From contig JAFWYF010000004.1 of assembly GCA_017522785.1 (NCBI GenBank), forward strand, positions 55,480 to 119,479: DNA of 64,000 nucleotides, written 5' to 3'. Made by a program: the position numbers and the translations under genes. Position 1 is the first letter of the stretch, and each line of letters begins with the position of its first letter. Positions 17,924 through 56,263 of this stretch are shown in pieces. This stretch comes from Bacteroidaceae bacterium. GTDB taxonomy: Bacteria > Bacteroidota > Bacteroidia > Bacteroidales > Bacteroidaceae. The notes beneath the pieces were generated by a model, which saw only the letters and a program-made list of their open reading frames with translations, made no database searches and had not been told where the DNA came from.

Positions 17924-17959
17924 AGTTATATCTGTTTAAAGATGAATATTGTGTGTGTT

Positions 17960-18760: not shown

Positions 18761-18804
18761 AATTCTAAATTTTAAGATTAGTATTATATTTGTCTGTTTG
18801 TTTT

Positions 18805-20199: not shown

Positions 20200-20210
20200 A
20201 GTTCTTTACA

Positions 20211-21209: not shown

Positions 21210-21228
21210 AATATTATCTTTTTATTTT

Positions 21229-22023
21229 TTATTTTAACATAAACCAATAAGCTCCACAACCACTGAAATCAACTATATTCTTTGCACTATTATCCTTTGC
21301 ATCGGTGTATTTGTCGCCACTCTTGCGCACAATAGCTTTTATGTTACCCTCGCGTGTGTAGAACAATAGATAGCACTCATTTACAACTGTTTGAGCATTA
21401 TAACTGCCATAGTTTATTTTGCTCTCGCTTTTTAGTGAAGCAAATACAGGTTTTAAGTCGCTCATTGTTTTTGCAGCCAATATCTGCTCCAATGGAGTTA
21501 CCTCTGCAACAGACTCTTTTACAACAGGCGCTGCTTCATTTTCGACCTTTACAGAATCTGCCACTTGTGTCTCTGCAACATTTTTTGTACTATCGGACTG
21601 TGCCGGAGCGTTAATCTCGGAGAGAGCCTGCAAATCGGCTCCATTCTCTTCGTTGTTGAGAACAATTTGTCCGTCGCCATATATTAATACAATATCTTTT
21701 TTCTTCACATAGACAAAAGCACGTGTTTTTATACCACGTTTCATGTCCATCTCCTGAGCGCAAAGGTTAATATCCTGCAAAACAATCTGCTTTACCTCGG
21801 CACCGTTTCTTTTTGAAGCCACCCAATCGTTAATCTCGCCAACGAGTAACTCGCGTGCCAGACTCAAAGCCTCTTCCTCGGTGGACATGGTAGCCTCAGC
21901 CGATAGATACTGTGATGAACGTTTAATTTTGTTTATCTGCGCCTTTGTATCTGAGTTGTTCTGTGCATTAAGTATGCCACATAAGCAAATACTTAAAATA
22001 AATAGTGTGAAAAACTTTTTCAT
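21229..22023 (-). CDS. exported hypothetical protein (operon gene 5)
   Basis: 264 aa. Signal peptide ends NA-QNN. A low-complexity acidic/Val linker joins two globular halves. Confidence 0.75.
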   Translation of the reverse strand: MKKFFTLFILSICLCGILNAQNNSDTKAQINKIKRSSQYLSAEATMSTEEEALSLARELLVGEINDWVASKRNGAEVKQIVLQDINLCAQEMDMKRGIKTRAFVYVKKKDIVLIYGDGQIVLNNEENGADLQALSEINAPAQSDSTKNVAETQVADSVKVENEAAPVVKESVAEVTPLEQILAAKTMSDLKPVFASLKSESKINYGSYNAQTVVNECYLLFYTREGNIKAIVRKSGDKYTDAKDNSAKNIVDFSGCGAYWFMLK

Positions 22024-22059
22024 GGTTATATGTTTTTATCTCATTACCGTATTCTACAA

Positions 22060-23046
22060 TTACTTGTCGTCGGATGCCTCGTTGAATTCGTCGAAAAGTG
22101 CCGAAATATTATGTGTAGGAACAAACAGGTTAAGGTCGCCTGTTACAGTGCCCTTTCTATCTTTAAAAACAGTGTATGGAACTTCGACATTCATCACATG
22201 ATTGTATTTAAATATGTTGTTTACAGCAAAGAATGCCACTTGAATTGAGTTGGTACCCATCTCCTCTATACCAATATATATATTACAACCTAGTACTTTA
22301 AGATAGGAGAGCCATAATTTCAAAGGTAAAGTACGCTGTTCCTTTTTTAATCCATATTTGCGCACCACCAACTCCAATGACACCTCACCGGGGGAAAGTT
22401 CCGAGAGCAAAAGATTATGACAACTCTCCAGCGGATGGTCGGCATCGAAAACCAACTGTAAGCCAGCACCACTGTTTATTAGATAGAGGTTACTGTTTAT
22501 ATCGTCTATCTGATAGGCACCACCCGGTTTCATATAATAGTTGTCGTGTAGCGGCTTCAGTTCCGATATTTCGGTAGTCAAAGTATCGACTATTCGGTAG
22601 GAGTAGTTATCCAACCCAACAAACAGGTTGTCTTCGAGCTGTTTCAGGTTCTGCCCTGTCATTAATTGACACGATGCCGGGAAAGATATCTCAATAATAG
22701 GGTTCTTGGCATTGAAGACAGCCAAACTATACCTGTTGTTCTCCTCGGCAAATGCCAACGAACTGCTATCATCTATTCGTGCCAGATTTTCAATGCGCCC
22801 TTTTGTTATGCGCACATCATCGCGCTCCATACGCGACGACTGTTCTGTAGCATTCATACCTTGCAACTCAGCCAGATAGCGTTCGACAAAATCGAACACA
22901 ACGGATATTGCCGGAATATCTTTAGATGCCTTTTGCGCCTCATCGCGTAACCTACCGCCCAAAACTCCATTATGCTGCCCCCACACAGATAGTGGGAGTA
23001 GCATAATGAAAATAGAGCAATATACTATTTTAAATAGCTTGTTCAC
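22060..23046 (-). CDS. exported hypothetical protein (operon gene 4)
   Basis: 328 aa. Signal peptide ends WG-QHN. No family recognised. Confidence 0.75.
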   Translation of the reverse strand: MNKLFKIVYCSIFIMLLPLSVWGQHNGVLGGRLRDEAQKASKDIPAISVVFDFVERYLAELQGMNATEQSSRMERDDVRITKGRIENLARIDDSSSLAFAEENNRYSLAVFNAKNPIIEISFPASCQLMTGQNLKQLEDNLFVGLDNYSYRIVDTLTTEISELKPLHDNYYMKPGGAYQIDDINSNLYLINSGAGLQLVFDADHPLESCHNLLLSELSPGEVSLELVVRKYGLKKEQRTLPLKLWLSYLKVLGCNIYIGIEEMGTNSIQVAFFAVNNIFKYNHVMNVEVPYTVFKDRKGTVTGDLNLFVPTHNISALFDEFNEASDDK

Positions 23047-23052
23047 AGGGTC

Positions 23053-23688
23053 TTAAGGAATGATTGTCTCTTTATTACCATCTTTTTTGTGCCATGTACC
23101 GGTTACAAGATGTCCATCTTCAAATATTCCGATAACCTTTTCACCCGGTTGTGCTGTACGCTTTTTAATATCGCGTTGTTCAATGATATGTGTCTCTTTG
23201 AATGTGAGTACGCCATTGTCGTCGTTCATCTTGCCATTTTTCATGCGACCTTTGTACACTGCATAACCCAAATCTTTGGTAACAACCAAATTTGGGTCGG
23301 GTGCAGGAGCCGGTGTAGGCTCTGGTTCCGGGGCAGGTGCTGGTGCAGGAGCTGGGATAGGCTCGGGGGCAGGAACAGGCTCAGGGGCAGGTGCTGGTGC
23401 AGGTTGAACTTTCTTTGGCTCTTTTGCCTTTTTATCCGATTCTGGCATAAAGAACATTGCCGCACCGCCGGCTGCAATTGCAAGAACAGCAATAATTGCT
23501 ATTATTAATCCTTTATTACCACCTTTCTTGGGAGGAGGACACTCACGCAATGCCTTTCCACACTCGGCACAAACAAATTCCTTGCGTGATGGAATCTCTT
23601 GTACCTCTTTTGCTTTTGCCTTTGAACAACCATCGTTCAAACACATTCCATATCTAAAACGAACTCTGTCGTTACTACTACTTGCCAT
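23053..23688 (-). CDS. bitopic membrane protein: zinc ribbon, TM helix, (Pro-X)19 spacer, small C-terminal globular domain (operon gene 3)
   Basis: 211 aa. Cysteines C16-x4-C21 ... C40-x2-C43; TM at about 61-81 (LIIAIIAVLAIAAGGAAMFFM). Residues 96-132 alternate Pro strictly at every second position. The C-terminal YKGRMKNGKMNDDNGVLTF ... GIFEDGHLVTGTW is MORN-like. Confidence 0.8.
   Translation of the reverse strand: MASSSNDRVRFRYGMCLNDGCSKAKAKEVQEIPSRKEFVCAECGKALRECPPPKKGGNKGLIIAIIAVLAIAAGGAAMFFMPESDKKAKEPKKVQPAPAPAPEPVPAPEPIPAPAPAPAPEPEPTPAPAPDPNLVVTKDLGYAVYKGRMKNGKMNDDNGVLTFKETHIIEQRDIKKRTAQPGEKVIGIFEDGHLVTGTWHKKDGNKETIIP
23293..23403 (-). repeat. imperfect tandem GC-rich repeat encoding the (Pro-X)19 spacer
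   Basis: Reiterated ggtgcagg/ggtgctgg/ggctcggg units are visible on the plus strand. They translate as PAPAPAPEPVPAPEPIPAPAPAPAPEPEPTPAPAPDP. Confidence 0.8.
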
Positions 23689-23724
23689 TTTTTATTATTT
23701 TTAAATTGTTATCTATTTATGTTA

Positions 23725-26700
23725 TTACATCATTGGAGGGGGAGGAGGTGTAGGACCACCTGCAGGAGGCAACGGTGGGAAACCGGGTGCTGCAGCAGGA
23801 GGTGCAAACAATGGTTGCAATGCAGGAACCTGTCCGGCAGGCATCCATGCGGGCATACCGTCCATCCAAACTGTGCTTTGTGCTGTCAATTGACCACCCT
23901 GTACCATTTGTTTACACTGCTCATAGGTATAAGGACCATAGTTCTGACCTGCTACAGAGAGGTAGAGACTAATCTTTGGCTCTTCAGCATGAGGTGGAGG
24001 GGGAGGAGGTGTGCTTAAGCCACCGGGAGGTGGAGGAGGCACAGCCATTCCCATTGTAGGTTGCTGAACTTGCGCAGCGGGTTGCATAGTAGCTTGTGCG
24101 GCCTTTGCAGCAACCTCTTCGGCATTTTCTACAGCAAACAATGATGGTAATTGACTACCGTCGCCCTCACTATGTAACAAAATAGAATTGCTTAAGTCTG
24201 TAGCGGGATTTCCTGTGCATAGGAACTTTTCGTAACGTTCTTTATAAGGAGTCATCCACTCGATACCACGTACAGGGAAGCAGTATGATACTGTGATAAT
24301 TGAAAGCTCGTCTTTACGTGGGCTCTTGCGATTTACAGTGATTGTGGTACGTGCTGTACTCTGATTGAACGAATTTTTAAATGCTGCCTCAAGTTTATCT
24401 GCAAATTTCTTCAGGCCCTCATTTTCATCGGGAGAAGGAATAGAAACGAGTATAGCCTTTTTGTTAATACTTGCAGGGTTTGTAGGACTTAGATTTCCTT
24501 CGTTATTACGCAAGTGCAACTGTATCTGGTCGTTGTTCAAACGAAGATATACACCACTTTGACCTACTATCTTAGAAGCAAAGGCTTTGATATCATCATC
24601 GGTCTTAAGCTTTTGTTGTAACTGTGTTAGGATATTCAGGCCCAATACCTTATTGTCGCTATCGGCCTTTTCATTGTGTTTGGTCTTTACAATTTCTGAC
24701 AACTTAACATCAAATGCATCTTTTATATCATCGATGCTGATATTGTTTGCCAAATTACCAAAGTTCAAGAAATCGCCAACAGGTAGTATAGATTCACGCA
24801 ATTGACGTGCAATATTAGGCATATCTACTTTGTCAATCTTAAGTTCTTTCTCAAACTCATCCATTGCCTCCTCTTCGCTAACCTCAATGATTGCACCCTT
24901 CATATCCTCGAGACCTTTGTTCACCTTCTTCTGTGCTGTTACCAAACGCTCGGTTTCATCGATAGCATCATTGATTTTTTGACCAAATGAAGAGATATCG
25001 GCATCCATTTTACCTATTTCAACAAATACTTTTGCTAGAAGTTTCTTTGCAAAATCCCAACCACAAAGCATTGTCTTCGATGTATAGTAATCGGTTAAAA
25101 TACCCTGATGATCGGCATAGCGACGTGCACCAACACCAACCATGCGTTGCAATATACCCAAACGGCTCCACTCCTCGACATTTACTTTGCGGTCCTCTTC
25201 GCAAGCCTCGTAATTGGTTTTTTCCTCTTTTTCTTTTACTTCGAGCTCTTCGCGCATCTCGCCCAAACGCTCAAGCAGAAGTTTTGAAACTTTCTGCAAC
25301 TCAACAATAGAAACATCACCCAATTTCCATTTCTCGAACAGTTCGACCTCAATTGTGTGGCGTATCTCACGTGCTATTTCGGGAATTACACGTTCTTTAC
25401 CTTGGAAGAATGCTTCTACACCCTCTTCTCTGAAATGCTTGTTATAGAACTCGCTCATTATAGTATCGAGTTCATTGAGCGGACAATCGGCCTTCTTTGC
25501 ATCTTCGGCATAGCCAATTGCTTTATCGTGCCAATAATCGTTAAAGCCGGGATAATCAGCATCTGATTCAAGCACTTTAGCCTCCATTGTCAAATGTAGG
25601 TCGTCGAGCATCCATTTTGCGAGATTTTCTTTGTTGAAATACTCTTTGCGATAGTCTTTGTTGCGTTCTTCATCAACATAGCCAAGATTCTCTCGCCAAT
25701 TATTATATTTAAATTGATAGAGTATACTCTCGCCCACTGTATATGTGATATGTTTGAGTACACGAAGCTCAGGATACATCACACGTTTAATTCCGAAAGA
25801 ATTGATTTTCTTGGTACGGGCAACAGGGATACGTCCGTCTGCACCGGCATTTGCAGCCTCATCATACTCCAATGCAAAATCATCCATATTCTCGAAATTG
25901 TATGCACGTATGATATCGCTATTAACCTGATCCTCTTCGTTTATAAAGAATATACGGGCAAATACATAGTCGCTGACAATTTTAGGAAGTTCTGTGAGAG
26001 AATTTATTGTTAAACCATTCTCATTCACATTACTATAAACAGTGAGACCATCTGCAACACCCTTTACGCGGTCGCTATAATATTTAGCTTGTCCACCACC
26101 TGTTACATCGCAAGGGAACCATCGACCAGCCTGCAAAGCATTCAACTCGTTCATTGCAGCGTAACCATTCTGGTAGTAACGACCTTGGTCCATATCGGCT
26201 TTGGGAAGATTCATTTCGGGAATCATTGCATAAACCGAAATTTTTGCATTTGGGAATGTTTTACGTGTTTGTACAACAACGTCGACAATTGAACCCGAAC
26301 CTGTACCACCACAAAGACCGGCAAAGATATGTATATTGGTACTTGTAGCATCGGCAGAAATAGCCTCACAACGTGCATAGGCATCACGAAGGCTATTTAC
26401 ATAACCTACAGCATTTGCAGCAAACAAAAGACGACCAGCACGACGTTTTTGTCCTGCGGCTTGACCCAACGAGCCAATAGCCGACCTTACTGCCGATACA
26501 TTATCTACTATTCCCTTTACAGAAGGATAGTTGTTTATGTGGTCGAGAATATGCTCAACATCAACAGCTTTGATATTTAAAAATTCGTTATTGGTAAACG
26601 AAGCATCCTGTCCCATTACACGAAAGTCGGGACGTGCTCTACCATCTTTTGGCATCATTTCGTCGGTTGAATCGACATACAAAAGAGCAACTGGCAATTG

Positions 26701-26823
26701 CTTGCGCTCGTCAGCTGTTGGGAACTCCTCGAACATACGCATCTTGAATGCACGCAAGATTTTACCACCTGTACCTCCTAGACCAACGAGGATGTGGTTG
26801 CTTTTACAAAAATTAGTCTCCAT
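23725..26823 (-). CDS. tubulin/FtsZ-superfamily GTPase-like protein with long helical region and C-terminal GYF-like domain (operon gene 2)
   Basis: 1032 aa. VGLGGTGGK (T1-like, nt 26761-26784); GSLGQAAGQKRRAGR (FtsZ T3-like GAGxxPxxG, nt 26431-26475); GGTGSG (tubulin signature, nt 26293-26310, checked against the nucleotides). The middle region is rich in charged heptads. The C-terminus has a W/GP/W GYF_2-like pattern between polyproline runs. Confidence 0.85.
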   Translation of the reverse strand: METNFCKSNHILVGLGGTGGKILRAFKMRMFEEFPTADERKQLPVALLYVDSTDEMMPKDGRARPDFRVMGQDASFTNNEFLNIKAVDVEHILDHINNYPSVKGIVDNVSAVRSAIGSLGQAAGQKRRAGRLLFAANAVGYVNSLRDAYARCEAISADATSTNIHIFAGLCGGTGSGSIVDVVVQTRKTFPNAKISVYAMIPEMNLPKADMDQGRYYQNGYAAMNELNALQAGRWFPCDVTGGGQAKYYSDRVKGVADGLTVYSNVNENGLTINSLTELPKIVSDYVFARIFFINEEDQVNSDIIRAYNFENMDDFALEYDEAANAGADGRIPVARTKKINSFGIKRVMYPELRVLKHITYTVGESILYQFKYNNWRENLGYVDEERNKDYRKEYFNKENLAKWMLDDLHLTMEAKVLESDADYPGFNDYWHDKAIGYAEDAKKADCPLNELDTIMSEFYNKHFREEGVEAFFQGKERVIPEIAREIRHTIEVELFEKWKLGDVSIVELQKVSKLLLERLGEMREELEVKEKEEKTNYEACEEDRKVNVEEWSRLGILQRMVGVGARRYADHQGILTDYYTSKTMLCGWDFAKKLLAKVFVEIGKMDADISSFGQKINDAIDETERLVTAQKKVNKGLEDMKGAIIEVSEEEAMDEFEKELKIDKVDMPNIARQLRESILPVGDFLNFGNLANNISIDDIKDAFDVKLSEIVKTKHNEKADSDNKVLGLNILTQLQQKLKTDDDIKAFASKIVGQSGVYLRLNNDQIQLHLRNNEGNLSPTNPASINKKAILVSIPSPDENEGLKKFADKLEAAFKNSFNQSTARTTITVNRKSPRKDELSIITVSYCFPVRGIEWMTPYKERYEKFLCTGNPATDLSNSILLHSEGDGSQLPSLFAVENAEEVAAKAAQATMQPAAQVQQPTMGMAVPPPPPGGLSTPPPPPPHAEEPKISLYLSVAGQNYGPYTYEQCKQMVQGGQLTAQSTVWMDGMPAWMPAGQVPALQPLFAPPAAAPGFPPLPPAGGPTPPPPPMM
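23734..23751 (-). repeat. 18-nt direct repeat copy A (encodes TPPPPP at the extreme C-terminus)
   Basis: tggagggggaggaggtgt is identical to the copy at 23995-24012. The copies are 261 nt (87 codons) apart and in the same frame. Confidence 0.9.
23995..24012 (-). repeat. 18-nt direct repeat copy B (encodes TPPPPP just before the GYF-like domain)
   Basis: tggagggggaggaggtgt is identical to the copy at 23734-23751. Confidence 0.9.
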
Positions 26824-26845
26824 AATACATTATTGTTAAATTAGT

Positions 26846-27472
26846 TTATCTTGTTCTTCTATGTGAATGGCCACTTACACGAGGACGCGAACGGTCGCCA
26901 CCCACAGGTTGGCGTCGGCCGGCACCTTCGCGGGTTCTACCACCAGAGCCATTGTTTATTGATATTGTTTTAATTGCTATGATTGCCGAAACCACTACAA
27001 AGCCTAAGCACCAGAGCAAACGACGAAATATGAAATGGCGCATAAAACTGCGTATTTCGTCTCCTATTGCCGCTGGGAGTGTTTCGACAGTGTATCCCAT
27101 AAAATAGCCTGAACCAAAATAGTTTTCGAATATTGGAAATTCATCTATGAGCAACTGAATTACCTCTTCGCTTTCGGCAATTGAAACAGAGGAATCCAAT
27201 GACACATAGCGCATATCAAGAATTTCCTGAGTTTTTTCCTCTACAATATCGGTAAAACTGATTATTTTTATTGCTCCACAAATCATTATACACTGTACGG
27301 AAAGCAAAACGAAGAGTACAAAGCCCATGATGTAGGTTATGATTGTAAACTCTGCATTCTTCCACCATCCTTTAATGGCAAAGAAAAACAGACACATACA
27401 TACAGCGGCAATAAGTATTCCCCAAAAGAGGCTGCTTATTGAAAATTGAAGTATTTCCCAAAGTGCATTCAT
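26846..27472 (-). CDS. 3-TM membrane protein with Arg/Gly-rich C-terminal tail (operon gene 1)
   Basis: 208 aa with hydrophobic segments at about 14-33, 42-68 and 150-170. The tail is GSGGRTREGAGRRQPVGGDRSRPRVSGHSHRRTR. Confidence 0.75.
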   Translation of the reverse strand: MNALWEILQFSISSLFWGILIAAVCMCLFFFAIKGWWKNAEFTIITYIMGFVLFVLLSVQCIMICGAIKIISFTDIVEEKTQEILDMRYVSLDSSVSIAESEEVIQLLIDEFPIFENYFGSGYFMGYTVETLPAAIGDEIRSFMRHFIFRRLLWCLGFVVVSAIIAIKTISINNGSGGRTREGAGRRQPVGGDRSRPRVSGHSHRRTR

Positions 27473-35569: not shown

Positions 35570-35597
35570 AAAAAAAGGCTCCTAGGAGCCTTTTTTT
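35570..35597. terminator. bidirectional rho-independent terminator
   Basis: aaaaaaaggctcctaggagccttttttt: a perfect GC-rich palindrome between an A7 run and a T7 run. Confidence 0.8.
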
Positions 35598-35889
35598 ATT
35601 GTATAAATATCTTCTTCACTACAGATAGACCATCTGCCGTTGCAATTTTCACAATATAGAGACCCGAATTATCGAAGTTGATATAATGTATAACAGATAG
35701 GGTGGAGATTGATTTAATTAAAGCTCCACGAGCATCCACTATTTCAATATTGGATATTTTTCTATCAAAAGCATCAATAGTAAGCATTTTATTGTCTACA
35801 TAGACATTTATTGCATTTGTATTTGAGTCTACAGACATTGCTGTATCAGAAAGAGCCACATCTACACTTATACAATTTTCGGGTAACAT
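35596..35889 (-). pseudogene. orphan T9SS C-terminal sorting domain (remnant of a secreted protein gene)
   Basis: 97 codons. INVYVDNKMLTIDAFDRKISNIEIVDARGALIKSIS ... SGLYIVKIATADGLSVVKKIFIQ fits the Por secretion tail. There is no signal peptide and no cargo domain, and stops occur in the 80 nt upstream. Confidence 0.5.
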
Positions 35890-46260: not shown

Positions 46261-46410
46261 TTAGGGCCATATATTACTCCAATCATCGGCATGATTGTTT
46301 TCTTTTTCCGGCAGACGCAAACCTTGTACTCGTGCTGTATCCGATGCTGCCAACATCTGTTCAACATGAAACTCAACAACCCGGATAGACATCTTTTTGT
46401 ATTTTCTCAT
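46261..46410 (-). CDS. small ORF (49 aa), paralog of the ORF at 46562-46717; not in the ORF track
   Basis: Hand translation gives MRKYKKMSIRVVEFHVEQMLAASDTARVQGLRLPEKENNHADDWSNIWP. It shares M[KR]KY.K, V.E, LAAS and a W..IW C-terminus with the neighbouring small ORF. Confidence 0.4.
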   Translation of the reverse strand: MRKYKKMSIRVVEFHVEQMLAASDTARVQGLRLPEKENNHADDWSNIWP

Positions 46411-46491
46411 AAAAAATCTCTTTTACATTACTACTGCTATAATACACATTACAAACAACAGCCAAGAGATTTACTTTGTTTTAGAGAGCAA

Positions 46492-46540
46492 CAACGAAAA
46501 AAACAAAAAAAATGTGATAGAAACACATTTCTATCACATT
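46492..46540 (-). terminator. rho-independent terminator after the upstream small ORF
   Basis: 13-bp stem aatgtgatagaaa / tttctatcacatt with loop caca, followed on the minus strand by TTTTTTTTGTTTTTTT. Confidence 0.7.
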
Positions 46541-46561
46541 TTTCATCTATTTCAAACAAGC

Positions 46562-46717
46562 TTATTCACTCCAAATATCTCCCCATGTTCCTCGTCTTTC
46601 TATTGAGCGGTCGGCATTGGAATCTGTAACACCGCCAACACCAATAGAGGCCGCCAAAAGAGCCGTTTCCACCTCGGATATTACCATTTCGGGTTTCTCA
46701 TATTTTTTCATCATCAT
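46562..46717 (-). CDS. small ORF (51 aa; 49 if started at the third Met), possibly co-transcribed with the T9SS cargo gene; not in the ORF track
   Basis: Hand translation gives MMMKKYEKPEMVISEVETALLAASIGVGGVTDSNADRSIERRGTWGDIWSE. It starts 9 nt after the upstream stop codon, in the same frame, and is followed by a strong terminator. Confidence 0.45.
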   Translation of the reverse strand: MMMKKYEKPEMVISEVETALLAASIGVGGVTDSNADRSIERRGTWGDIWSE

Positions 46718-46726
46718 TCCAATATT

Positions 46727-48511
46727 TTACTTGTTAATAAAAACCTTTTTACCATTCACGATATATATTCCCGACTCCACAACATTGTTTACACGACGGC
46801 CTGCGAGGTCGTAAACAACAGCCGTTTCATCACTTTCTACGTTCACGTCGTAGATACCGGTTGTTCCGGGGAAGCCAATGCGCAATGATGCAGATGAACT
46901 CATTCCCGGAATGCAGAGGTATGCCTTACCTGCTGCAACAGAGAAATCGCTAACCTTTTTACCAAACACCAAAACACCATCCTGCTCAACAAGCACATAG
47001 TATGAGTTATTGTCGTTATAATTTACAGCAACGCGCTCTGCCGTAGGATTACCCACCATGTAGTTTGTTGCAACAGAAGAGGCATCACCACCCACAAAGA
47101 GAGTGTAATCACCTTTTGCGGCTGCAAGCAAGCATCCCTCGCCAGCGGGAATAACACCTGTAATTTCCTCTAAAGAGACGTATGAGTCGTTGGCCGCTGT
47201 AGCAGCATAGGCCTTAACTCCATCGGGGATAATAACATTTTCGGAATGGCAGAATGTCACATAGCCTAAATCGTCGGGTACAGAAACAGAGACACTTGCC
47301 GACTCATTTTTATATATTTTTATATCATTTTGAGCACTCGCATAGCAAGCGAATCTTGGATTTTGTTTATTATATCTTAACCAATTTCGTGTTGTTGTTT
47401 CTTCATCAACCATTGATTTAATTACCGCTATGCCGTCAGTGCCGATTTCTATTGTCCATGATGATTTTGCAGTAATTTCATTTTCTGTTCTTAGATAATT
47501 TTTAGTCGAAGTTGAAGCACAGTATATATATCCTCCGGTGTTAGCGTTAAAAGCATATGAATTCGCGGACAATCCTGATTTTAACGTAAATATTTCCGTA
47601 TCATTACCAAACAGCACTATATTATCCTTTTTTTCAATCTCCGTTTGCTTTCTATAATCCGACTCTTGCGTGGTAGACATTGCACAATTTTCGTCAGCTG
47701 CAACTATTACAATTTTATCACCATACCTCAAATCGTTTATATTTGTAACTAAAGAATAAGATGTTAGTTTTACATAGTTCTTTTCTAAAACACTGCTATA
47801 ATTACCTGCCTTATCTTTTGCCACAGCCCTTACAAGTGTACTTATAGAAATTGATATAGGAGAAACATATTCAACTCCGAACTCTTTAGGGTCACTACCA
47901 TCCAAAGTATATAATATAGTATTGTTATCGACATTAGAAAGTTCCAAATCAAATGGTGCTGAAAAACTTTCTTCTTCGACACTGAATATTGGCAATGACA
48001 CATCTATTGCACCAGCCTTTTTATATGTTATAGTAAGTGATTGACAATACAAAGAATTTTGAGTAGCTTTAATTATAAGATTAAAAACTTCATTGGTCTT
48101 AACTTCATAATTATCATCTTCTAAAGTTAAAACTTTATCGACATATGATGTTGTATAAGCACCATTCCAAACATTATTAGAAAATGGAGCATTATCAATA
48201 GAAGCAATGACTGTATTACCAACTGTTGCCGAAAGTGAACCAGCTCCTGCAGATTTATTGGATTTCATACTTAATTTTATGCCAGTTATTATATATCCAT
48301 CCAAACCACTTATTGTGTATGTTACAGAGTTATCCTTAGTCATCTGGCACTTGGTTCCAAAAGTCTGAGAATAAGATACAGAAATACCTGTTGGTAAGTC
48401 TCCGGTTGTTGAAACAGAACTTTTATCTAAGACTTCACATTTAAATTCCTCAGCATGCACACCAAAGATGATTACCAATGATAAGAGACAAGAAAATAAA
48501 AATCTTTTCAT
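46727..48511 (-). CDS. secreted protein with chitobiase/hexosaminidase-C-like (Fn3-associated) segment and T9SS C-terminal sorting domain
   Basis: Signal peptide ends HA-EEF. NNTILYTLDGSDPKEFGVEY resembles the CHB_HEX_C-type motif. The C-terminus VVYDLAGRRVNNVVESGIYIVNGKKVFINK is a T9SS sorting-domain pattern. Confidence 0.8.
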   Translation of the reverse strand: MKRFLFSCLLSLVIIFGVHAEEFKCEVLDKSSVSTTGDLPTGISVSYSQTFGTKCQMTKDNSVTYTISGLDGYIITGIKLSMKSNKSAGAGSLSATVGNTVIASIDNAPFSNNVWNGAYTTSYVDKVLTLEDDNYEVKTNEVFNLIIKATQNSLYCQSLTITYKKAGAIDVSLPIFSVEEESFSAPFDLELSNVDNNTILYTLDGSDPKEFGVEYVSPISISISTLVRAVAKDKAGNYSSVLEKNYVKLTSYSLVTNINDLRYGDKIVIVAADENCAMSTTQESDYRKQTEIEKKDNIVLFGNDTEIFTLKSGLSANSYAFNANTGGYIYCASTSTKNYLRTENEITAKSSWTIEIGTDGIAVIKSMVDEETTTRNWLRYNKQNPRFACYASAQNDIKIYKNESASVSVSVPDDLGYVTFCHSENVIIPDGVKAYAATAANDSYVSLEEITGVIPAGEGCLLAAAKGDYTLFVGGDASSVATNYMVGNPTAERVAVNYNDNNSYYVLVEQDGVLVFGKKVSDFSVAAGKAYLCIPGMSSSASLRIGFPGTTGIYDVNVESDETAVVYDLAGRRVNNVVESGIYIVNGKKVFINK

Positions 48512-51559: not shown

Positions 51560-54500
51560 ATGAAAAGAATTATTGGTATCATGTTTGCTATCTCGCTTGC
51601 ACTTACCATGCAAGCACAGAACAATGTTTTTTCCGATAGCAAAGAGTGGTTGTTTAAAGAGGGACGTCGCCTATATGCCGACAAGGAGTATGCAACAGCA
51701 CTAACCCTGATTAACCGTCTGCCGAGAAACGAATTCTCGCCAATAGAACGTCAGGAACTAGACTATATGCGTGCTATATCTACATTTGAGACCAACTCAC
51801 TCGAAGGACGTGCATTAATGTTACAATATCTCGACGATTACCCACAAAGTGGCAAGAGAGAGATTTTAGCCATACACATAGCCGAATCCTATTACTTTGA
51901 GCACAACTTTGCACAAGCAAAAAAATGGTTCACCGGTGCCAACTTCGACCGTCTTTCGGCAAAAGAGCGCAACAGAGCTACACTATATTATGCACTCACA
52001 TTGCAGGAACTTAACGAGGGAGAAGTTGCAAAGAGCCTATTAAACAGTTTGCGCTTTACCAGCAAAGAGTATAGTAGCGATGCCATATTCCACTTGGCTG
52101 TGATAGACTATGACAACAACGATTTACAACCTGCATACAATGGGTTTAAATCGATTGAATTTGACGACAAGTATCACCTTGAGATACCCTACTATTTAGC
52201 GGCAATATATCTAAAAAACGGTGAGTATGTACGTGCCGAAAAGGTTGCCGATGCCTTTTTAAAAGACAACAGCAATACCAGACAAGGAGCTGCCATGCAA
52301 CAAATCCTTGGTGCTTCCTATTTTGGGCAAAAACGCTATTCCGAGGCAATAGAGCCACTAAAGTTATATATTTCGAAAAACACTGCCCCACAACGTATTG
52401 CATACTATCAATTGGCTTTGAGCTACTTTGAAACAGGACACTACCAAGATGCCATACCACTATTTGACAAATGTACAGACAGTAACGATGCCATAGCCCA
52501 GAACGCATACCTGCACATTGGCATCATACAGTTAAAACTAAATGACATAACAAAAGCACGTTTAGCATTTGAACAGGCCGCATCTATGAATGGCGACAGC
52601 CGAATACGCGAAGAGGCCCTATACAACTACGCGCTTTGCATACATCAGACACGCTATTCCCCTTTTGCCGAGAGTGTAAAGGTTTTTGAGCAATTTTTGA
52701 ATGAGTATCCAAAATCGAAGCACACTGCACAAGTAAACAGCTATCTTGTTGAGGTGTATATGAATACACGCAACTACGATGTTGCATTACAATCGATAGA
52801 AAAAATCGAACGACCCTCAAAAGCTATTTTGGAAGCAAAACAGAAAGTGCTGTATCGTTTAGGAGTACAATCGTTCATAGACAATGACATGCCACAAGCC
52901 ATTGAGTACATGAACCGTTCTCTTGAACTATCGAAATATAACAAAGAGACACACTCCGATGCTCTCTATTGGCGAGGCGAGGCAAACTATCGTCTAAACA
53001 AATATAATGCAGCCGACAGAGATTATCAGGCGACACTTTCGCTATCGCCACGCAACGCATCTAATGCCATGTACGGCCTTGCATACACCTATTTCCAGCG
53101 TAACAGATACAACGATGCCATAAACAGTTTTAATCGTTTCTTGCAAAATTCCGATGCAAGAAATGCAAAATCGATGCGTGCCGATGCATACAACCGTCTT
53201 GGCGACTGTAATTTCTATAATCGAAATTATGTAGCGGCAGAGCAATATTACCGTAAAGCGACTGAAACGGACAAAAAGCATAGCGACTATGCTCTCTATC
53301 GTTCGGGAATAGCACAGGGCTTGACAAAGAACTACGAAGGGAAAATTGAGACATTGCAAAAACTGATAAATGAACACCCCAAAAGCGTTTATGCCGAACA
53401 GGCATACTACGAACTTGGACGTTCCTATGTCTCTTTGGAGAACTACGAACGTGCAGTAGAGGTTTTCACACAGTTCACCAAACGCTATCCAAAGAGCAAA
53501 ATATCGCGTCGTGCTGTTGCCGAAATTGCCATGATTCACAATCAAAACGGAGAACACGAAAAAGCCATTGTCGCATATAAGCAGATTATTCGCGACTATC
53601 CACAGAGTGAAGAGGCACAGATTGCTGCACAGGATTTGAAAAATATTTATGTAGAAAACGGAAAAGTTGATGAATATGCAACATACGCGGCATCGACTCC
53701 CGGCCTAAAAGCGATGGAGAGTAGCGAACGTGATACGCTCACCTACCTTGCCGCCGAGAAGATTTATGGTAAAGGCAACATGGGCGAAGCAAAAAAAGAG
53801 TTCGAGAAATATCTTAGAAATTTCCCCGAAGGCTCATTTGCCATAAACAGCCACTACTATTGCGGACTTATTTACTACAACCAACAAGCTCCAAAAGATG
53901 CACTTGCACACCTCGAAAAAGTTATTGCCTTCCCTGATAATAAATATAGCGAAGAGGCAATAGCGTTAGCATCGGAACTCTATTACAAAGAGGGAGCATA
54001 TGATAAGGCCTATGAGTTATTCAAACAACTGTCGGAAAAGAGCGATAATGAAGAGCGTCGTAAAGCATGCCTAATGAACATGACACGCTGTGCATATATG
54101 CTTGGCGACAGCGATAATGCTGTTGCTGTAGCCGGCGAGATACTGAAAAATGGGAATATTTCTCCGGAATGGGAGCGTGAAGCGCTATATATTCGTGCAA
54201 AATCACTGATACAAAAGGAGATGAGCGACGTTGCAAGTTCCGATTTAAAGAAGCTTGCAGATGACACACGTAGCAAACAAGGTGCAGAAGCAAAATATTT
54301 GTTGGCACAATACTATTACGACAGCAAACAATATGACAACTGCGAGAAAGAGATATTGAGCTACATAGAGGCAAGCACACCACACTCCTATTGGTTGGCA
54401 CGTAGCTTTGTACTATTAGCCGATTTATATATTACACAAGAACGCAGCATGGAAGCTAAACAATATCTGCTATCGTTACAGAACAATTACACAGGCGATG

Positions 54501-54565
54501 ACGATATTGCAGAACTTATAAAACAACGACTGGAATCCATAGCAAAGTTGGAAAGTAGCAATTAA
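51560..54565 (+). CDS. exported tetratricopeptide-repeat protein (1001 aa)
   Basis: Signal peptide ends QA-QNN. Reiterated TPR-like A..Y/F..A units run throughout. Its ATG directly abuts the NUDIX stop. Confidence 0.85.
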   Translation: MKRIIGIMFAISLALTMQAQNNVFSDSKEWLFKEGRRLYADKEYATALTLINRLPRNEFSPIERQELDYMRAISTFETNSLEGRALMLQYLDDYPQSGKREILAIHIAESYYFEHNFAQAKKWFTGANFDRLSAKERNRATLYYALTLQELNEGEVAKSLLNSLRFTSKEYSSDAIFHLAVIDYDNNDLQPAYNGFKSIEFDDKYHLEIPYYLAAIYLKNGEYVRAEKVADAFLKDNSNTRQGAAMQQILGASYFGQKRYSEAIEPLKLYISKNTAPQRIAYYQLALSYFETGHYQDAIPLFDKCTDSNDAIAQNAYLHIGIIQLKLNDITKARLAFEQAASMNGDSRIREEALYNYALCIHQTRYSPFAESVKVFEQFLNEYPKSKHTAQVNSYLVEVYMNTRNYDVALQSIEKIERPSKAILEAKQKVLYRLGVQSFIDNDMPQAIEYMNRSLELSKYNKETHSDALYWRGEANYRLNKYNAADRDYQATLSLSPRNASNAMYGLAYTYFQRNRYNDAINSFNRFLQNSDARNAKSMRADAYNRLGDCNFYNRNYVAAEQYYRKATETDKKHSDYALYRSGIAQGLTKNYEGKIETLQKLINEHPKSVYAEQAYYELGRSYVSLENYERAVEVFTQFTKRYPKSKISRRAVAEIAMIHNQNGEHEKAIVAYKQIIRDYPQSEEAQIAAQDLKNIYVENGKVDEYATYAASTPGLKAMESSERDTLTYLAAEKIYGKGNMGEAKKEFEKYLRNFPEGSFAINSHYYCGLIYYNQQAPKDALAHLEKVIAFPDNKYSEEAIALASELYYKEGAYDKAYELFKQLSEKSDNEERRKACLMNMTRCAYMLGDSDNAVAVAGEILKNGNISPEWEREALYIRAKSLIQKEMSDVASSDLKKLADDTRSKQGAEAKYLLAQYYYDSKQYDNCEKEILSYIEASTPHSYWLARSFVLLADLYITQERSMEAKQYLLSLQNNYTGDDDIAELIKQRLESIAKLESSN

Positions 54566-54595
54566 CAGTAAAAAAAATAAAGAACCATTATATTT

Positions 54596-56263
54596 ATGAA
54601 AAAAGAGATTATTTTAATAGCTACGTTGCTATTCTCTATAGGCAGTTATGCACAAAAAGATTCACTGAATGCAGTAATTCAGGTAGAGAACGATTACAAT
54701 CCTGTGGTGATAAAAGCAAACAAGCAGAGTTTTACTCCACAAATAGAGATGACAAAGAACAACAATCCATTGGAGTTGGTATTCTCGCAGGAGGCTACAC
54801 CGTACAGAAGATTTACAAGTGAGCGCAATGTTAAAGAGTTGCTTCCGAAACAGGATATTGCCACACCCGGTTACTTGCGTCTGGGATATGGAAATAATAA
54901 CAATGTAGATGCACTACTTGGATATCGTTTGGATATAAGCAAAAATGATAGGATTAATATTTTTGCATCGATGAACGGATTCAACACCGAACTCGAAGGC
55001 TTTTGGAACAATTGGGATTCACGCATGTACGACACATGGCTAACCACTGATTACACACATCAGTTTGAGGCCCTTTCGTTTGGTATAGAAACCGGTATTA
55101 ACAACAAGGTTTTCAACTATCAAACCATCAACCTTGGGAATTTACGTGAGGGTTACACCGATAAACAGCACAGCAATAGTTTCAATTTGATGTTCAATGT
55201 AAAGTCGAACCTTGCAGGACCATTCTCATATAGTGCAAAAGCCGGATACAGATATAATACACGTAAATATTCAGCCGGATTAAAGGAGCGTATAAGCGAA
55301 AACCACATTATTGCAAGTGGAAGTGTTGCCTATGAGCTTCCAAACGATGATATTCAAAAATTGGGCATGAATGTAGACCTTGATGGATTTATATATAGCG
55401 ATGAGCTAAAGCCACAGGAGGGAACAAGTTTCGAGGATTATGCATCTATTAGATTTAATCCCTTCATGAACTTTCGTTTCGATGACTGGAAAATTAGACT
55501 TGGCGTGCATGCCGACATGCTTACAGCAAACGGAACATTCTTTGCCTTTGCTCCCGATTGTAGTATAGAGGGCAGTATAACCGACAGAATTGACCTTTAT
55601 GCTACAGCTACAGGCGGACGCACTTTAAACACCTTTGCAACAATGGAAGAGGCTACACCCTATTGGGAGTATGTTCCCGGAATAACCCAACAGCACACAG
55701 CGACATATAAGATTTTCGATGTGTCGGTTGGAGGACGTATAGCCATTGAGCCATTATCGGTGAACTTATTTACAGGATATGCATATACAAAAGACGACCT
55801 ACTATGCACCAATGAGATTTTCAGAGACCACCAGACAAATGTTTTCAAACAAGAGAACACACGCAATATGTATATTGGCGGACAAATCGGATACGATTAT
55901 GGTGGTTGGTTTGAATTTGCAGCCGATGCACGTTACGACTATTGGAAAAGTAGCGGAGAAGAGTATCATCTACTATACAAGCCCGAAATTACTATTAACC
56001 TGAATGGTAAAGCACAAATTTATAAAGGGTTATGTGCAAATTTGGGATATACCTTTACACGTTACACCAAAAGCAGCGAGGAACCTATAAAAGGACGCAT
56101 AGCAAACAAAAGCAACTTACATGCAAAAATAGGCTACACATTCTTGGACAGATTTGAGGCTTTTGTTTTAGGAGACAACCTGCTTAATTATGACTATCAA
56201 ATATATCCGGGATATTTTGCACAAGGTATAAACTTTTTAATTGGAGCAACTGTTAGTTTCTAG
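54596..56263 (+). CDS. putative outer membrane beta-barrel protein
   Basis: Signal peptide ends YA-QKD. Alternating hydrophobic beta-strand pattern rich in aromatic residues, and a terminal ...IGATVSF ending in Phe. Confidence 0.6.
   Translation: MKKEIILIATLLFSIGSYAQKDSLNAVIQVENDYNPVVIKANKQSFTPQIEMTKNNNPLELVFSQEATPYRRFTSERNVKELLPKQDIATPGYLRLGYGNNNNVDALLGYRLDISKNDRINIFASMNGFNTELEGFWNNWDSRMYDTWLTTDYTHQFEALSFGIETGINNKVFNYQTINLGNLREGYTDKQHSNSFNLMFNVKSNLAGPFSYSAKAGYRYNTRKYSAGLKERISENHIIASGSVAYELPNDDIQKLGMNVDLDGFIYSDELKPQEGTSFEDYASIRFNPFMNFRFDDWKIRLGVHADMLTANGTFFAFAPDCSIEGSITDRIDLYATATGGRTLNTFATMEEATPYWEYVPGITQQHTATYKIFDVSVGGRIAIEPLSVNLFTGYAYTKDDLLCTNEIFRDHQTNVFKQENTRNMYIGGQIGYDYGGWFEFAADARYDYWKSSGEEYHLLYKPEITINLNGKAQIYKGLCANLGYTFTRYTKSSEEPIKGRIANKSNLHAKIGYTFLDRFEAFVLGDNLLNYDYQIYPGYFAQGINFLIGATVSF

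What the first reader, a model, noticed from the sequence alone, without database searches (positions are those of the whole stretch)
46261..46717. Two tandem paralogous roughly 50-codon ORFs, missed by the ORF track, with a conserved leader-like N-terminus and a W-x-x-I-W C-terminus
Seen in sequence (hand translation of the minus strand):
- 46717-46562 gives MMMKKYEKPEMVISEVETALLAASIGVGGVTDSNADRSIERRGTWGDIWSE.
- 46410-46261 gives MRKYKKMSIRVVEFHVEQMLAASDTARVQGLRLPEKENNHADDWSNIWP.

Shared elements appear in the same order: M-[KR]-K-Y-x-K, V-x-E, LAAS, and a C-terminal W-[GS]-[DN]-I-W just before the stop.

The conserved residues use different synonymous codons. LAAS is ttg gcg gcc tct in one and ttg gca gca tcg in the other, and Ile is att versus ata. 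This pattern points to selection at the protein level rather than a recent DNA duplication.

The upstream ORF starts 9 nt after the stop of the T9SS cargo gene and is followed by a strong terminator (13-bp stem plus a T run). Neither peptide has a hydrophobic signal sequence. The first contains a Gly-Gly at residues 28-29.

Inference: these could be leader-plus-core precursor peptides (RiPP or bacteriocin-like) or small regulatory or chaperone-like proteins linked to the cargo gene. No maturation enzyme, C39 peptidase or exporter is visible in this window, which weakens the RiPP idea.
Basis: seen in the sequence. Interest (0 to 1): 0.65.

Follow-up and report, generated by a model that had tools for sequence, protein, structure and literature searches.

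The report
Small peptides paired with secreted cargo
The two tiny genes are real members of a very large, unnamed family of about 50-residue peptides that Prevotella-like gut bacteria encode right behind one class of secreted surface proteins, a pairing not found in the databases and papers searched and of unknown function.

Summary
Both ORFs are present exactly as described, pepA at 46717-46562 and pepB at 46410-46261. They are not chance ORFs. They belong to an unannotated family of about 50-aa peptides, with 1,668 clusters at 50% identity in a search of 1.84 billion proteins. The family signature is MKK-x-Y-x-x-P, an acidic/hydrophobic strand, [ML]LA-x-S, a variable acidic linker, and RRG-x-WGNLW close to the stop.

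Selection acts on the protein. All synonymous codons are used at invariant residues, and median dN/dS is 0.16. AlphaFold predicts disorder. Pfam, NCBIfam, PHROGs, PADLOC, PDB and full-text literature searches found nothing.

The main new result is context. The peptide is the second cistron, ahead of the terminator, behind secreted proteins that end in a roughly 140-aa beta-sandwich plus a Prevotella-type short T9SS C-terminal signal. All 7 cargo genes picked without regard to the peptide had such a peptide. None of 5 tail-bearing genes lacking that domain did. A second subgroup heads Mfa-like lipoprotein operons that look phase-variable.

No maturase, RRE protein, peptidase or exporter recurs in about 110 loci. 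The leader does carry the YxxPxΦ motif of RRE-bound RiPP leaders. The RiPP idea is therefore neither confirmed nor excluded. The link to the cargo gene is strongly confirmed. Function remains unknown.

The parts
46562..46717 (-). pepA, 51 aa (49 aa if it starts at the third ATG, 46711). A typical family member: KKYEKPEM leader, LLAAS, and RRGTWGDIW followed by SE and the stop.
   Evidence: Leave-out family HMM E=2.9e-14. Orthologue P0001 at 98% identity. Intact in L102 and L103.
46261..46410 (-). pepB, 49 aa. A divergent tandem paralogue: Pro8 is Met, RRG is lost, and the ending is DDWSNIWP. It lies after the terminator and 57 nt before the antiporter gene.
   Evidence: Leave-out HMM E=1.4e-4. 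Orthologue P0003. Intact in L102 and L103 with only 2 synonymous changes.
46507..46544 (-). Intrinsic terminator hairpin (17 pairs) plus T run, 18 nt after the pepA stop. It closes the cargo-pepA transcription unit.
   Evidence: The same arrangement is seen in 27 of 39 related loci, against 1 of 26 with a hairpin between cargo and peptide.
46727..48511 (-). 594-aa secreted protein with a signal peptide and Fn3_assoc/CHB_HEX_C_1 domains. It is the first cistron of the operon.
46874..47296 (-). Pre-CTD beta-sandwich domain of the cargo (about residues 406-546). This is the feature that predicts a peptide gene downstream. In L102 the homology breakpoint, where a different passenger region is joined on, falls at about 47292.
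   Evidence: AF2 pLDDT above 90 over this stretch. No Pfam or NCBIfam hit. No Foldseek PDB match below E=0.01. Contingency table. Breakpoint.
46730..46858 (-). Short T9SS C-terminal signal, 43 aa after the T/GI cleavage-type motif: GIYDVNVESDETAVVYDLAGRRVNNVVESGIYIVNGKKVFINK.
   Evidence: Read directly from the sequence. Its features match the short CTDs described in PMC11969387.

Best explanation
**What is shown.** pepA and pepB are translated small-protein genes of a large unannotated family. pepA is the second cistron of a two-gene operon. The first gene encodes a secreted protein ending in a specific pre-CTD beta-sandwich plus a Prevotella-type short T9SS signal.

**What is inferred.**
- The peptide has no signal sequence and no predicted fold, so it most likely stays in the cytoplasm as a disordered, two-ended docking peptide.
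- Its invariant KK-x-Y-x-x-P-x-Φ strand would bind, as a beta-strand, to one recognition protein encoded elsewhere in the genome. An RRE-like winged-helix peptide-binding domain is the best guess.
- Its invariant RG-x-WGNLW end would be the effector part.
- Because the peptide is made only when its surface-protein operon is transcribed, it would report or couple the ON state of that operon to a shared target. This would be cross-talk regulation or a biogenesis step for this class of adhesin-like surface proteins.
- The same logic would apply where the family heads phase-variable Mfa-like lipoprotein operons.

**Status of the steps.**
- Shown: coding status, purifying selection, disorder, co-transcription, and strict pairing with the cargo module.
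- Inferred: cytoplasmic location, the trans-encoded partner, and the regulatory or coupling role.
For: **Family size and signature.** A profile search found 1,668 clusters at E<=1e-3 and 183 at E<=1e-10, and 118 close relatives. Column statistics give Y5 98%, P8 97%, S24 94%, R46 97%, G47 96%, W49, G50 and W53 99%.

**Selection.** Every synonymous codon is used at the invariant R, G and L positions. NG86 dN/dS has a median of 0.155, and all 25 pairs are below 0.5.

**Disorder.** AF2 gives pTM 0.14 and no secondary structure.

**Pairing with the cargo.**
- 46 of 97 peptide instances lie directly behind a tail-bearing gene. Another 21 are cut off by a contig end.
- Of genes with the domain plus the tail, 48 of 50 are followed by a peptide. 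Of complete tail-bearing genes without the domain, 0 of 5 are.

**Same transcript.** Cargo-peptide gaps are mostly 2-140 nt. A terminator follows the peptide in 27 of 39 loci. One lies between cargo and peptide in only 1 of 26.

**The block is kept when the passenger is swapped.** Window versus L102, and L015 versus L018.

**Second context.** 15 instances lie 17-30 nt before Mfa_like_1 lipoprotein genes. These sit behind a tyrosine-integrase gene and 14-nt inverted repeats 162 nt apart.

**Leader motif.** It equals the RRE-binding [Y/W]xxPxΦ motif (PMC13381572).
Against: - No candidate partner was identified. No RRE or PqqD protein, regulator or other gene recurs near the peptides.
- The cargo is exported while the peptide appears cytoplasmic, so a direct physical role is hard to picture.
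- The Mfa-like context lacks the pre-CTD domain, so the domain-specific pairing and the second context do not share an obvious common target.
- There are no expression or proteomic data.
- A disordered 50-mer regulator of this kind has no characterised precedent in Bacteroidota that I could find.
Confidence: 0.4

Rival explanations
1. RiPP or pheromone precursor with unlinked maturation genes. The YxxPxΦ leader is bound by an RRE protein encoded elsewhere. The leader is removed, for example at the A-x-S site by a signal-peptidase-I-like enzyme as in LPP peptides. The Trp-containing C-terminal part (RRG-x-WGNLW, with a W-G-N triad) is modified and/or released and exported. Many precursor genes would be scattered through the genome, as with prochlorosins.
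For: - Size, disorder and leader motif fit. The LPP leader YxxPxVLxHQxIxFET and its SpI-type cleavage are a precedent.
- Several paralogues occur per genome: IKY85_02750, _04120 and _06055.
- Leader-only truncated paralogues exist.
- More distant relatives keep the leader and vary the C-terminus.
Against: - No RRE, radical SAM, YcaO, LanM, C39-ABC or other maturase or exporter was seen within about 7 kb in about 110 loci or in the 64-kb window.
- This model does not explain why the gene is tied to one cargo domain.
- The conserved part is the C-terminus and the variable part is the middle, the opposite of most RiPP families.
- There is no conserved ring-forming acidic residue for a lasso (read from the sequences).
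- NCBIfam RiPP precursor models do not hit.
Confidence: 0.25
2. Cargo-specific cytoplasmic holdase or targeting peptide. The peptide is made from the same mRNA just after the cargo's C-terminus. It binds the pre-CTD beta-sandwich or the three-stranded short CTD by strand addition and keeps the last-made part of the cargo export-competent until Sec translocation.
For: - Pairing is strict and specific to the pre-CTD domain: 48 of 50 against 0 of 5, and 7 of 7 in unbiased picks.
- The peptide is on the same transcript, with gaps as short as 2-15 nt.
- The domain, CTD and peptide are inherited as one block when passengers are swapped.
- The peptide has two strand-prone segments.
Against: - The same family also sits in Mfa-like lipoprotein operons that lack the domain, with no dom.hmm hit even at E<=10.
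- No dedicated chaperone is known for Sec/T9SS cargo.
- No complex could be modelled with the tools available.
- There is no homology between the peptide and CTD strands.
Confidence: 0.15
3. Cis-acting regulatory nascent peptide (arrest or attenuation type, like TnaC or SecM). The conserved RRG-x-WGNLW segment acts in the ribosome tunnel near the stop codon and controls termination, mRNA stability or translation of the next gene.
For: - The conserved Trp-rich segment usually lies 0-1 residue from the stop: 83 of 113 sequences.
- In the lipoprotein context the stop is a fixed 17-30 nt before the next start.
- In several loci the terminator hairpin starts 0-3 nt after the stop.
Against: - The N-terminal 24 residues are equally conserved, and no role in a tunnel mechanism is evident for them.
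- Tails after WGNLW range from 0 to 13 aa.
- Behind cargo genes there is no consistent downstream gene, and stop-to-hairpin distances vary from 0 to 88 nt.
- More distant relatives lose the motif but keep the leader.
Confidence: 0.08
4. Non-functional ORFs: chance reading frames or remnants of gene 5' ends left by recombination between cargo genes.
For: - pepB is degenerate at several family-invariant positions.
- One relative is frameshifted, L096.
- The N-terminus looks superficially like a signal peptide with Ser in place of the lipobox Cys.
Against: - 1,668 clusters keep an open frame with invariant residues.
- Synonymous codon diversity and dN/dS of about 0.16 show selection on the protein.
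- There is no homology to the cargo or CTD.
- There is no Rfam RNA in the region.
Confidence: 0.02

Closest known systems
RRE-dependent RiPP leader peptides (lasso peptides; linear polyphosphorylated peptides, LPP, PMC13381572)
   Same: A short disordered precursor-like peptide. It has an N-terminal [Y/W]xxPx(hydrophobic) motif followed by a strand and an h-E-T/A element, then a small-x-small (A-x-S) site like a signal-peptidase-I site. Several paralogues occur per genome.
   Different: No RRE, peptidase, kinase, cyclase or exporter lies next to any of about 110 loci. The C-terminal nonapeptide is the most conserved part. The gene is tied to a secreted-protein module rather than to a biosynthetic cluster. 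The host is Bacteroidota, not Bacillota or Actinobacteria.
Cargo-linked accessory genes of the T9SS (PorP/SprF-like genes next to type B CTD cargo; from my own knowledge of Flavobacterium work)
   Same: A dedicated small accessory gene sits directly beside the gene for a particular class of T9SS cargo and is inherited with it.
   Different: PorP/SprF proteins are roughly 300-aa outer-membrane proteins with signal peptides. This one is a 50-aa disordered peptide without a signal. It pairs with a short, type-A-like CTD plus a pre-CTD domain.
Adhesin-operon cross-talk regulators (MrpJ/PapX at the 3' end of fimbrial operons; UpxZ at the head of phase-variable Bacteroides capsule loci; from my own knowledge)
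   Same: Small paralogous genes embedded in many different surface-structure operons. They are expressed only when that operon is ON, sit at the operon's 3' end or directly behind an invertible promoter, and act in trans.
   Different: Those regulators are folded proteins of 100-180 aa, either HTH or NusG-interacting. This family is about 50 aa, disordered and without a DNA-binding fold. A regulatory role here is only inferred.
Regulatory nascent peptides (TnaC, SecM) and Trp-containing peptide pheromones (ComX, XIP GLDWWSL; from my own knowledge)
   Same: Small ORFs with a conserved Trp-containing segment at or near the C-terminus.
   Different: There is no consistently regulated downstream gene behind cargo genes. 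No ComQ, Opp or Rgg-type partners were seen. The N-terminal motif is equally conserved.

Membership tests
RRE-dependent RiPP precursor (lasso/LPP type) | Leader carries [Y/W]xxPx[L/V/I/F/A] | tested here: met
   Y5 98%, P8 97%, and position 10 is M/A/I/V in about 80% of 339 sequences. pepA has YEKPEM. pepB has YKKMSI, so the Pro is lost. Motif definition from PMC13381572.
RRE-dependent RiPP precursor (lasso/LPP type) | An RRE (PqqD-like) protein and a modifying enzyme encoded in the same cluster | tested here: not met
   No PqqD, Radical_SAM, YcaO, LanM or kinase family in the Pfam tables of the loci fetched with the look-up of encoding contigs. No recurrent neighbour cluster other than cargo, lipoproteins, integrase and AraC. 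None in the window.
RRE-dependent RiPP precursor (lasso/LPP type) | Post-translational modification and leader removal | not testable with these tools
   Needs mass spectrometry of the peptide from a producing strain.
Double-glycine leader bacteriocin / PCAT substrate | Conserved GG/GA/GS at the leader end and a C39-peptidase ABC exporter nearby | tested here: not met
   pepA's G28-G29 falls in variable columns where Gly is about 15%. No C39 or ABC exporter recurs.
Lasso peptide core | Core starting with G/A/S/C and an Asp or Glu at position 7-9 for the macrolactam | tested here: not met
   The position of the first acidic residue after the A-x-S site varies from 5 to more than 11 among members (sequences). 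No cyclase was seen.
Prevotella short-CTD T9SS cargo (for the upstream 594-aa gene) | C-terminal signal of 43-55 aa after a PT/GI-type cleavage motif. Motif B (Y..G plus a basic residue), 1-6 aa to motif D (GxY-I), and a basic motif E. | tested here: met
   ..GTT/GIYDVNVESDETAVVYDLAGRRVNNVVESGIYIVNGKKVFINK is 43 aa, with 6 aa between motifs B and D. Criteria from PMC11969387.
Prevotella short-CTD T9SS cargo (for the upstream 594-aa gene) | Recognition by the curated T9SS sorting-domain models (TIGR04183 / PF18962) | tested here: not met
   No hit at E<=1 for the window protein. Only 1 of 37 related C-termini hits TIGR04183, at E=0.005.
Prevotella short-CTD T9SS cargo (for the upstream 594-aa gene) | T9SS machinery present in the same genome | not tested
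   Only a weak PorW/SprE-like TPR hit in the window and a PorP_SprF gene in L111. The whole genome is not available.
Ribosome-arrest / leader peptide | Regulated gene immediately downstream and a conserved C-terminal tunnel segment | tested here: inconclusive
   The C-terminal segment is conserved. There is fixed 17-30 nt spacing to a lipoprotein gene in 15 loci, but no consistent downstream gene in 46 cargo-linked loci.
MrpJ/PapX/UpxZ-type operon-embedded regulators | Folded DNA-binding or NusG-binding domain | tested here: not met
   AF2 pTM 0.14 with no secondary structure. No Pfam hit.

The most novel reading that the evidence does not exclude
The peptide is an obligate, previously unseen component of a cargo cassette: pre-CTD beta-sandwich, short T9SS signal and a 50-aa YxxP...WGNLW peptide. 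One possibility is that it is needed for secretion or attachment of that cargo class. Another is that it is a new kind of RRE-read intracellular or exported signal emitted by each adhesin operon, which would make RiPP-style leader recognition part of surface-protein control in Prevotella.
Probability: 0.3. Interest if true: 0.85.

Novelty: categorically new. Interest (0 to 1): 0.72.

Why it matters
Prevotella and its relatives dominate rumen microbiomes and many human gut microbiomes. They coat themselves with T9SS-delivered adhesins and enzymes.

A peptide family this large, with 1,668 clusters at 50% identity, has escaped annotation. It is encoded almost without exception behind one class of those cargo genes, which points to an unknown step in how these bacteria make, sort or coordinate surface proteins.

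It also offers a concrete, testable case. One can delete a 150-nt ORF and look at one cargo. The family also carries the YxxP leader signature of RiPPs, yet no biosynthetic cluster was found within about 7 kb of any locus examined. That bears on whether RRE-type peptide recognition is used outside natural-product biosynthesis.

Tried and rejected
- **Known families.** Pfam, NCBIfam, PHROGs and PADLOC gave no hit for the peptides. A PDB sequence search found none. Rfam found nothing meaningful in the region.
- **Literature.** Full-text searches for motif strings WGNLW, RRGTWG, NMLAAS and GIYIVNGKK found 0 papers.
- **Mobile elements.** There was no match in plasmid records (tblastn with group-B member P0101 only) or in viral contigs (family alignment A2).
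- **Split-CTD or gene-remnant idea.** hhalign of the peptide profile against a long CTD in the window and against the cargo C-terminal profile showed no similarity.
- **Double-glycine leader.** The GG is not conserved.
- **Lasso core.** There is no conserved ring acid.
- **Fold of the pre-CTD domain.** The AF2 model is confident (pLDDT 86), but Foldseek against the PDB gave nothing below E=0.01. The sequence hit to 4kca covers only the tail region.
- **Synteny through the antiporter.** Only 3 related genomes were recovered. In one of them, L002, the cargo and peptide pair sits on the other side of the antiporter.
- **Invertible promoter in front of cargo-type loci.** None was found in the window or in L002.
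- **Source names for the cargo.** Only 'hypothetical protein'.
- **Too weak to use.** dN/dS from the two closest orthologous loci rests on only 1-2 substitutions per ORF.
Full report
**1. The observation**

- pepA, 46717-46562, 51 aa.
- pepB, 46410-46261, 49 aa.

Details that check out:
- The codon differences at the shared LAAS and Ile residues are as stated.
- pepA begins 9 nt after the stop of a 594-aa gene (46727-48511).
- pepA is followed 18 nt later by a 17-pair hairpin and a T run, 46544-46507.
- pepA opens with three ATGs. The family consensus MKK suggests the third may be the true start.

Evidence that this is more than chance:
- The C-terminal W..[ILVM]W motif occurs in only these two of all six-frame segments of the window.
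- The two peptides align with E=0.005.
- A family HMM built without the window sequences or their orthologues finds pepA at E=2.9e-14 and pepB at E=1.4e-4 among 1,834 window segments. Nothing else scores below E=3.7.

**2. A large family under protein-level selection**

A first search with pepA alone found only its orthologue. A homologous peptide then turned up in a related genome, at L002 3446-3622. A three-sequence profile built from these recovered 118 small proteins. An 87-sequence profile, searched exhaustively against 1.84 billion representatives, gave 1,668 clusters at E<=1e-3 and 183 at E<=1e-10. Nearly all are 50-60 aa. Longer ones are upstream mis-starts.

The signature over 339 distinct sequences is:
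- K2 K3
- Y5 (98%)
- P8 (97%)
- an alternating hydrophobic/acidic stretch with E16 (71%)
- M20 L21 A22 x S24 (94%)
- a variable, acidic and polar linker of 15-30 aa
- R46 G47 x W49 G50 N51 L52 W53 (91-99%)
- then 0-13 residues, usually one

pepA is a typical member, with DIW in place of NLW. pepB is divergent: Pro8 is Met, RRG is lost, and WSNIW replaces WGNLW.

Selection is on the protein:
- At the invariant R, G and L positions every synonymous codon is used across 86 distinct genes.
- Nei-Gojobori dN/dS for 25 equal-length pairs has a median of 0.155, with all pairs below 0.5.
- In two contigs 95-97% identical to the window, L102 and L103, both ORFs are intact. They diverge by 0.6-1.3%, against 3.8-4.6% in the longer intergenic stretches and 1.4-8% in the flanking genes.

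AlphaFold2 with the family alignment predicts no structure, with pTM 0.14 and pLDDT 62.

No hit was found in Pfam, NCBIfam, PHROGs, PADLOC or the PDB. Rfam has nothing meaningful here. Motif strings occur in no paper of the searchable library.

**3. What it travels with**

I collected 80 metagenomic loci with the family profile, plus contigs for individual members. I then scanned them with the HMM and a crude gene caller. The 97 peptide instances fall into these groups:

| Context | Instances |
|---|---|
| Directly behind, on the same strand (gaps mostly 2-140 nt), a gene whose product ends ..[IV]YDLxGRRVxxxxKGIYIVNGKKVxxK | 46 |
| 17-30 nt in front of a lipoprotein gene (Mfa_like_1) | 15 |
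| Contig end less than 400 nt upstream | 21 |
| Other | 15 |

The tail matches the 'short CTD' T9SS signal described for Prevotella intermedia. That signal is 43-55 aa after a PT/GI cleavage motif. It has motif B (Y..G followed by a basic residue), 1-6 residues to motif D (GxY-I), and a basic motif E (PMC11969387). [quoted passage not shown] 'T9SS cargo' is therefore a well-founded reading but not a database call.

In front of the tail these proteins share a domain of about 140 aa with no Pfam or NCBIfam model. AF2 folds it confidently as a beta-sandwich, with pLDDT above 90. Foldseek finds no PDB relative below E=0.01.

The peptide follows this domain, not the tail as such:

| Gene class (distinct tail-bearing genes) | Followed by a leader-family ORF |
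|---|---|
| With the pre-CTD domain | 48 of 50 |
| Complete, without the domain (includes window 10882-13302) | 0 of 5 |

Of the two exceptions in the first row, one has a peptide just below the HMM threshold. The other is the first gene of a tandem cargo pair.

Most of those loci were found through the peptide, so I ran an unbiased test. All seven have a leader-family ORF 4-175 nt downstream.

Several of these seven keep the MKKxYxxP...hhAxS leader but end differently: ..SSVWDFDE, ..DEGW, ..GMWEDMK, ..NLWEQGW, ..GIWDSEW. The leader therefore defines a superfamily, and RRGxWGNLW is its largest branch.

The peptide is part of the cargo transcript. A strong hairpin with a T run follows the peptide within 130 nt in 27 of 39 distinct loci. 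Only 1 of 26 loci has one between cargo and peptide.

The block of pre-CTD domain, CTD and peptide is kept when the passenger region is exchanged:
- The window's 594-aa protein corresponds to a 921-aa protein in L102. Homology resumes at about 47292, the start of the domain.
- L015 (937 aa, F5/8 type C) and L018 (741 aa, ricin B) carry the identical peptide.

**4. The second context**

In the lipoprotein-linked subgroup, for example P0101 seen on at least 270 contigs, the peptide lies behind a tyrosine-integrase gene or a divergent AraC gene. It lies in front of two to four Mfa-like lipoprotein genes, often on conjugative-transposon DNA.
- Between the integrase gene and the peptide there are perfect 14-nt inverted repeats 161-162 nt apart in three independent loci. 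This is the anatomy of an invertible promoter.
- These loci also carry leader-only truncated paralogues, YEPPKVEVIEVEVEGGFAISG..DSDDSEFGY.
- The lipoproteins do not contain the pre-CTD domain.
- No such repeats precede the cargo-type loci I checked.

**5. What was not found**

No recognition protein, radical SAM or other maturase, peptidase or exporter recurs within about 7 kb of the peptides.

The 64-kb window has none either. Its other genes are ordinary:
- a GH92 glycosidase and an RND efflux system
- an ABC-F protein and a fucosidase
- PEP carboxykinase and topoisomerase genes
- an S41 peptidase
- a TPR protein with a weak PorW hit
- a distant Rce1-like protease

The family has no match in plasmid records (tblastn with P0101 only) or in viral contigs. 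The peptide is not homologous to CTD strands or to the cargo module.

**6. How it most likely works**

Shown:
- It is a real, selected, disordered 50-mer.
- It is co-transcribed with, and inherited with, a specific exported cargo module.
- The same family also sits in a second type of surface-protein operon.

Inferred:
- Because it has no signal sequence, it probably acts in the cytoplasm.
- Its two invariant ends look like docking motifs.
- The N-terminal one reproduces the [Y/W]xxPx(hydrophobic) motif that RiPP recognition elements bind as a beta-strand. Its continuation (I-E-[AT], then A-x-S) recalls the LPP leader YxxPxVLxHQxIxFET, which is cut by a signal-peptidase-I-like enzyme (PMC13381572).

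My preferred reading, at about 0.4, is a trans-acting docking peptide. It couples the ON state of its surface-protein operon to a shared partner encoded elsewhere, for regulation or biogenesis. I prefer it because it is the only reading that covers both genomic contexts.

| Rival | Confidence | Main point |
|---|---|---|
| RiPP or pheromone precursor with unlinked maturation genes | 0.25 | Explains the leader and the paralogy. Does not explain the cargo-domain pairing or the absence of enzymes. |
| Cargo-specific cytoplasmic holdase | 0.15 | Explains the pairing but not the lipoprotein context. |
| Cis-acting nascent peptide | 0.08 | The N-terminus is equally conserved, and there is no consistent downstream gene behind cargo genes. 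|
| Chance or remnant | 0.02 | Effectively excluded for the family. |

pepB sits after the terminator and is degenerate at invariant positions. It may be a diverging or decaying duplicate. It is nevertheless intact in both relatives, with only synonymous changes.

**7. Comparison with known systems**

It works most like a RiPP leader in how it would be recognised. It resembles cargo-adjacent T9SS accessory genes or adhesin-operon cross-talk regulators in where it sits. It is a member of none of these families: each has at least one defining feature that was tested here and not met (see the membership table).

**8. Verdict**

The cargo link is strong. The RiPP label is unproven. The Gly-Gly site is not real.

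I found no description of this family or of the cargo-peptide pairing. I rate it as new in kind, with function unknown, and of high interest for T9SS biology, small-protein research and RiPP research.

Noticed in passing
window 10882-13302 (-): An 806-aa secreted protein with no Pfam or NCBIfam hit. It ends in a variant short CTD (..RGIYNLQGQKLNELPNEGLVIVDGKKRYIRRERK). It lacks the pre-CTD domain and has no peptide ORF behind it, so it serves as an internal negative control for the pairing.
   Followed up: partly
window 35596-35889 (-): A 97-aa ORF that is essentially a lone long-type T9SS C-terminal domain (..IEIVDARGALIKS..GLYIVKIATADGLSVVKKIFIQ). It may be the remnant of a larger cargo gene.
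   Followed up: no
window 16460-27472 (-): A run of about nine genes, almost all without a meaningful Pfam or NCBIfam match (two have sub-threshold Pfam hits). They surround a 1032-aa protein with Tubulin_2 and GYF_2 domains (23725-26823). This is an uncharacterised gene cluster.
   Followed up: no
L009 7474-7663; L043 821-1010; L058 4102-4290: Perfect 14-nt inverted repeats, CTCTTCAAAAGAGA / TCTCTTTTGAAGAG, lie 161-162 nt apart. They sit between a tyrosine-integrase gene and the peptide plus Mfa-like lipoprotein operon, and probably mark an invertible (phase-variable) promoter.
   Followed up: partly
L008 7864-7986; L010 7834-7986; L056 882-1040; L058 4666-4824: Leader-only truncated paralogues (..YEPPKVEVIEVEVEGGFAISGYGQDSDDSEFGY*) sit next to full-length peptides in the lipoprotein-linked loci. 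They keep the N-terminal strand and the DSDDSEFG segment but lack RRGxWGNLW.
   Followed up: partly
window ~47292 vs L102; L015 5149-7962 vs L018 5737-7962: The passenger regions of the cargo are exchanged between close strains: 594 versus 921 aa, and 937 aa F5/8-type-C versus 741 aa ricin-B. The pre-CTD domain, short CTD and peptide stay the same. The breakpoint falls at the domain boundary.
   Followed up: partly
window 51560-56263 (+) and L012 1385-6047: A roughly 1000-aa TPR protein (weak PorW/SprE hit, far below cutoff) and a roughly 540-aa protein with a weak omptin-like hit lie beside the CHB_HEX_C/Fn3_assoc cargo, both in the window and in a distant relative. This looks like conserved synteny. 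An S41 PDZ peptidase is also nearby in both.
   Followed up: no
L111 1466-2398: A PorP_SprF family gene lies directly after the cargo-peptide pair, followed by an FGE-sulfatase family gene.
   Followed up: no
L096 1446-1670: A family member is split into two frames, MKKTYIKPEMNVEELLL / GMLASS..RGTWGNLWD. This is either a frameshifted pseudogene or an assembly error.
   Followed up: no
PDB 4kca residues ~578-682: A solved GH43 endo-arabinanase (PDB 4kca) ends in the same short-CTD tail (..RIYDLSGRLVTTPLQKGIYIRNGKKYV). A structure that includes this signal may therefore already exist.
   Followed up: no
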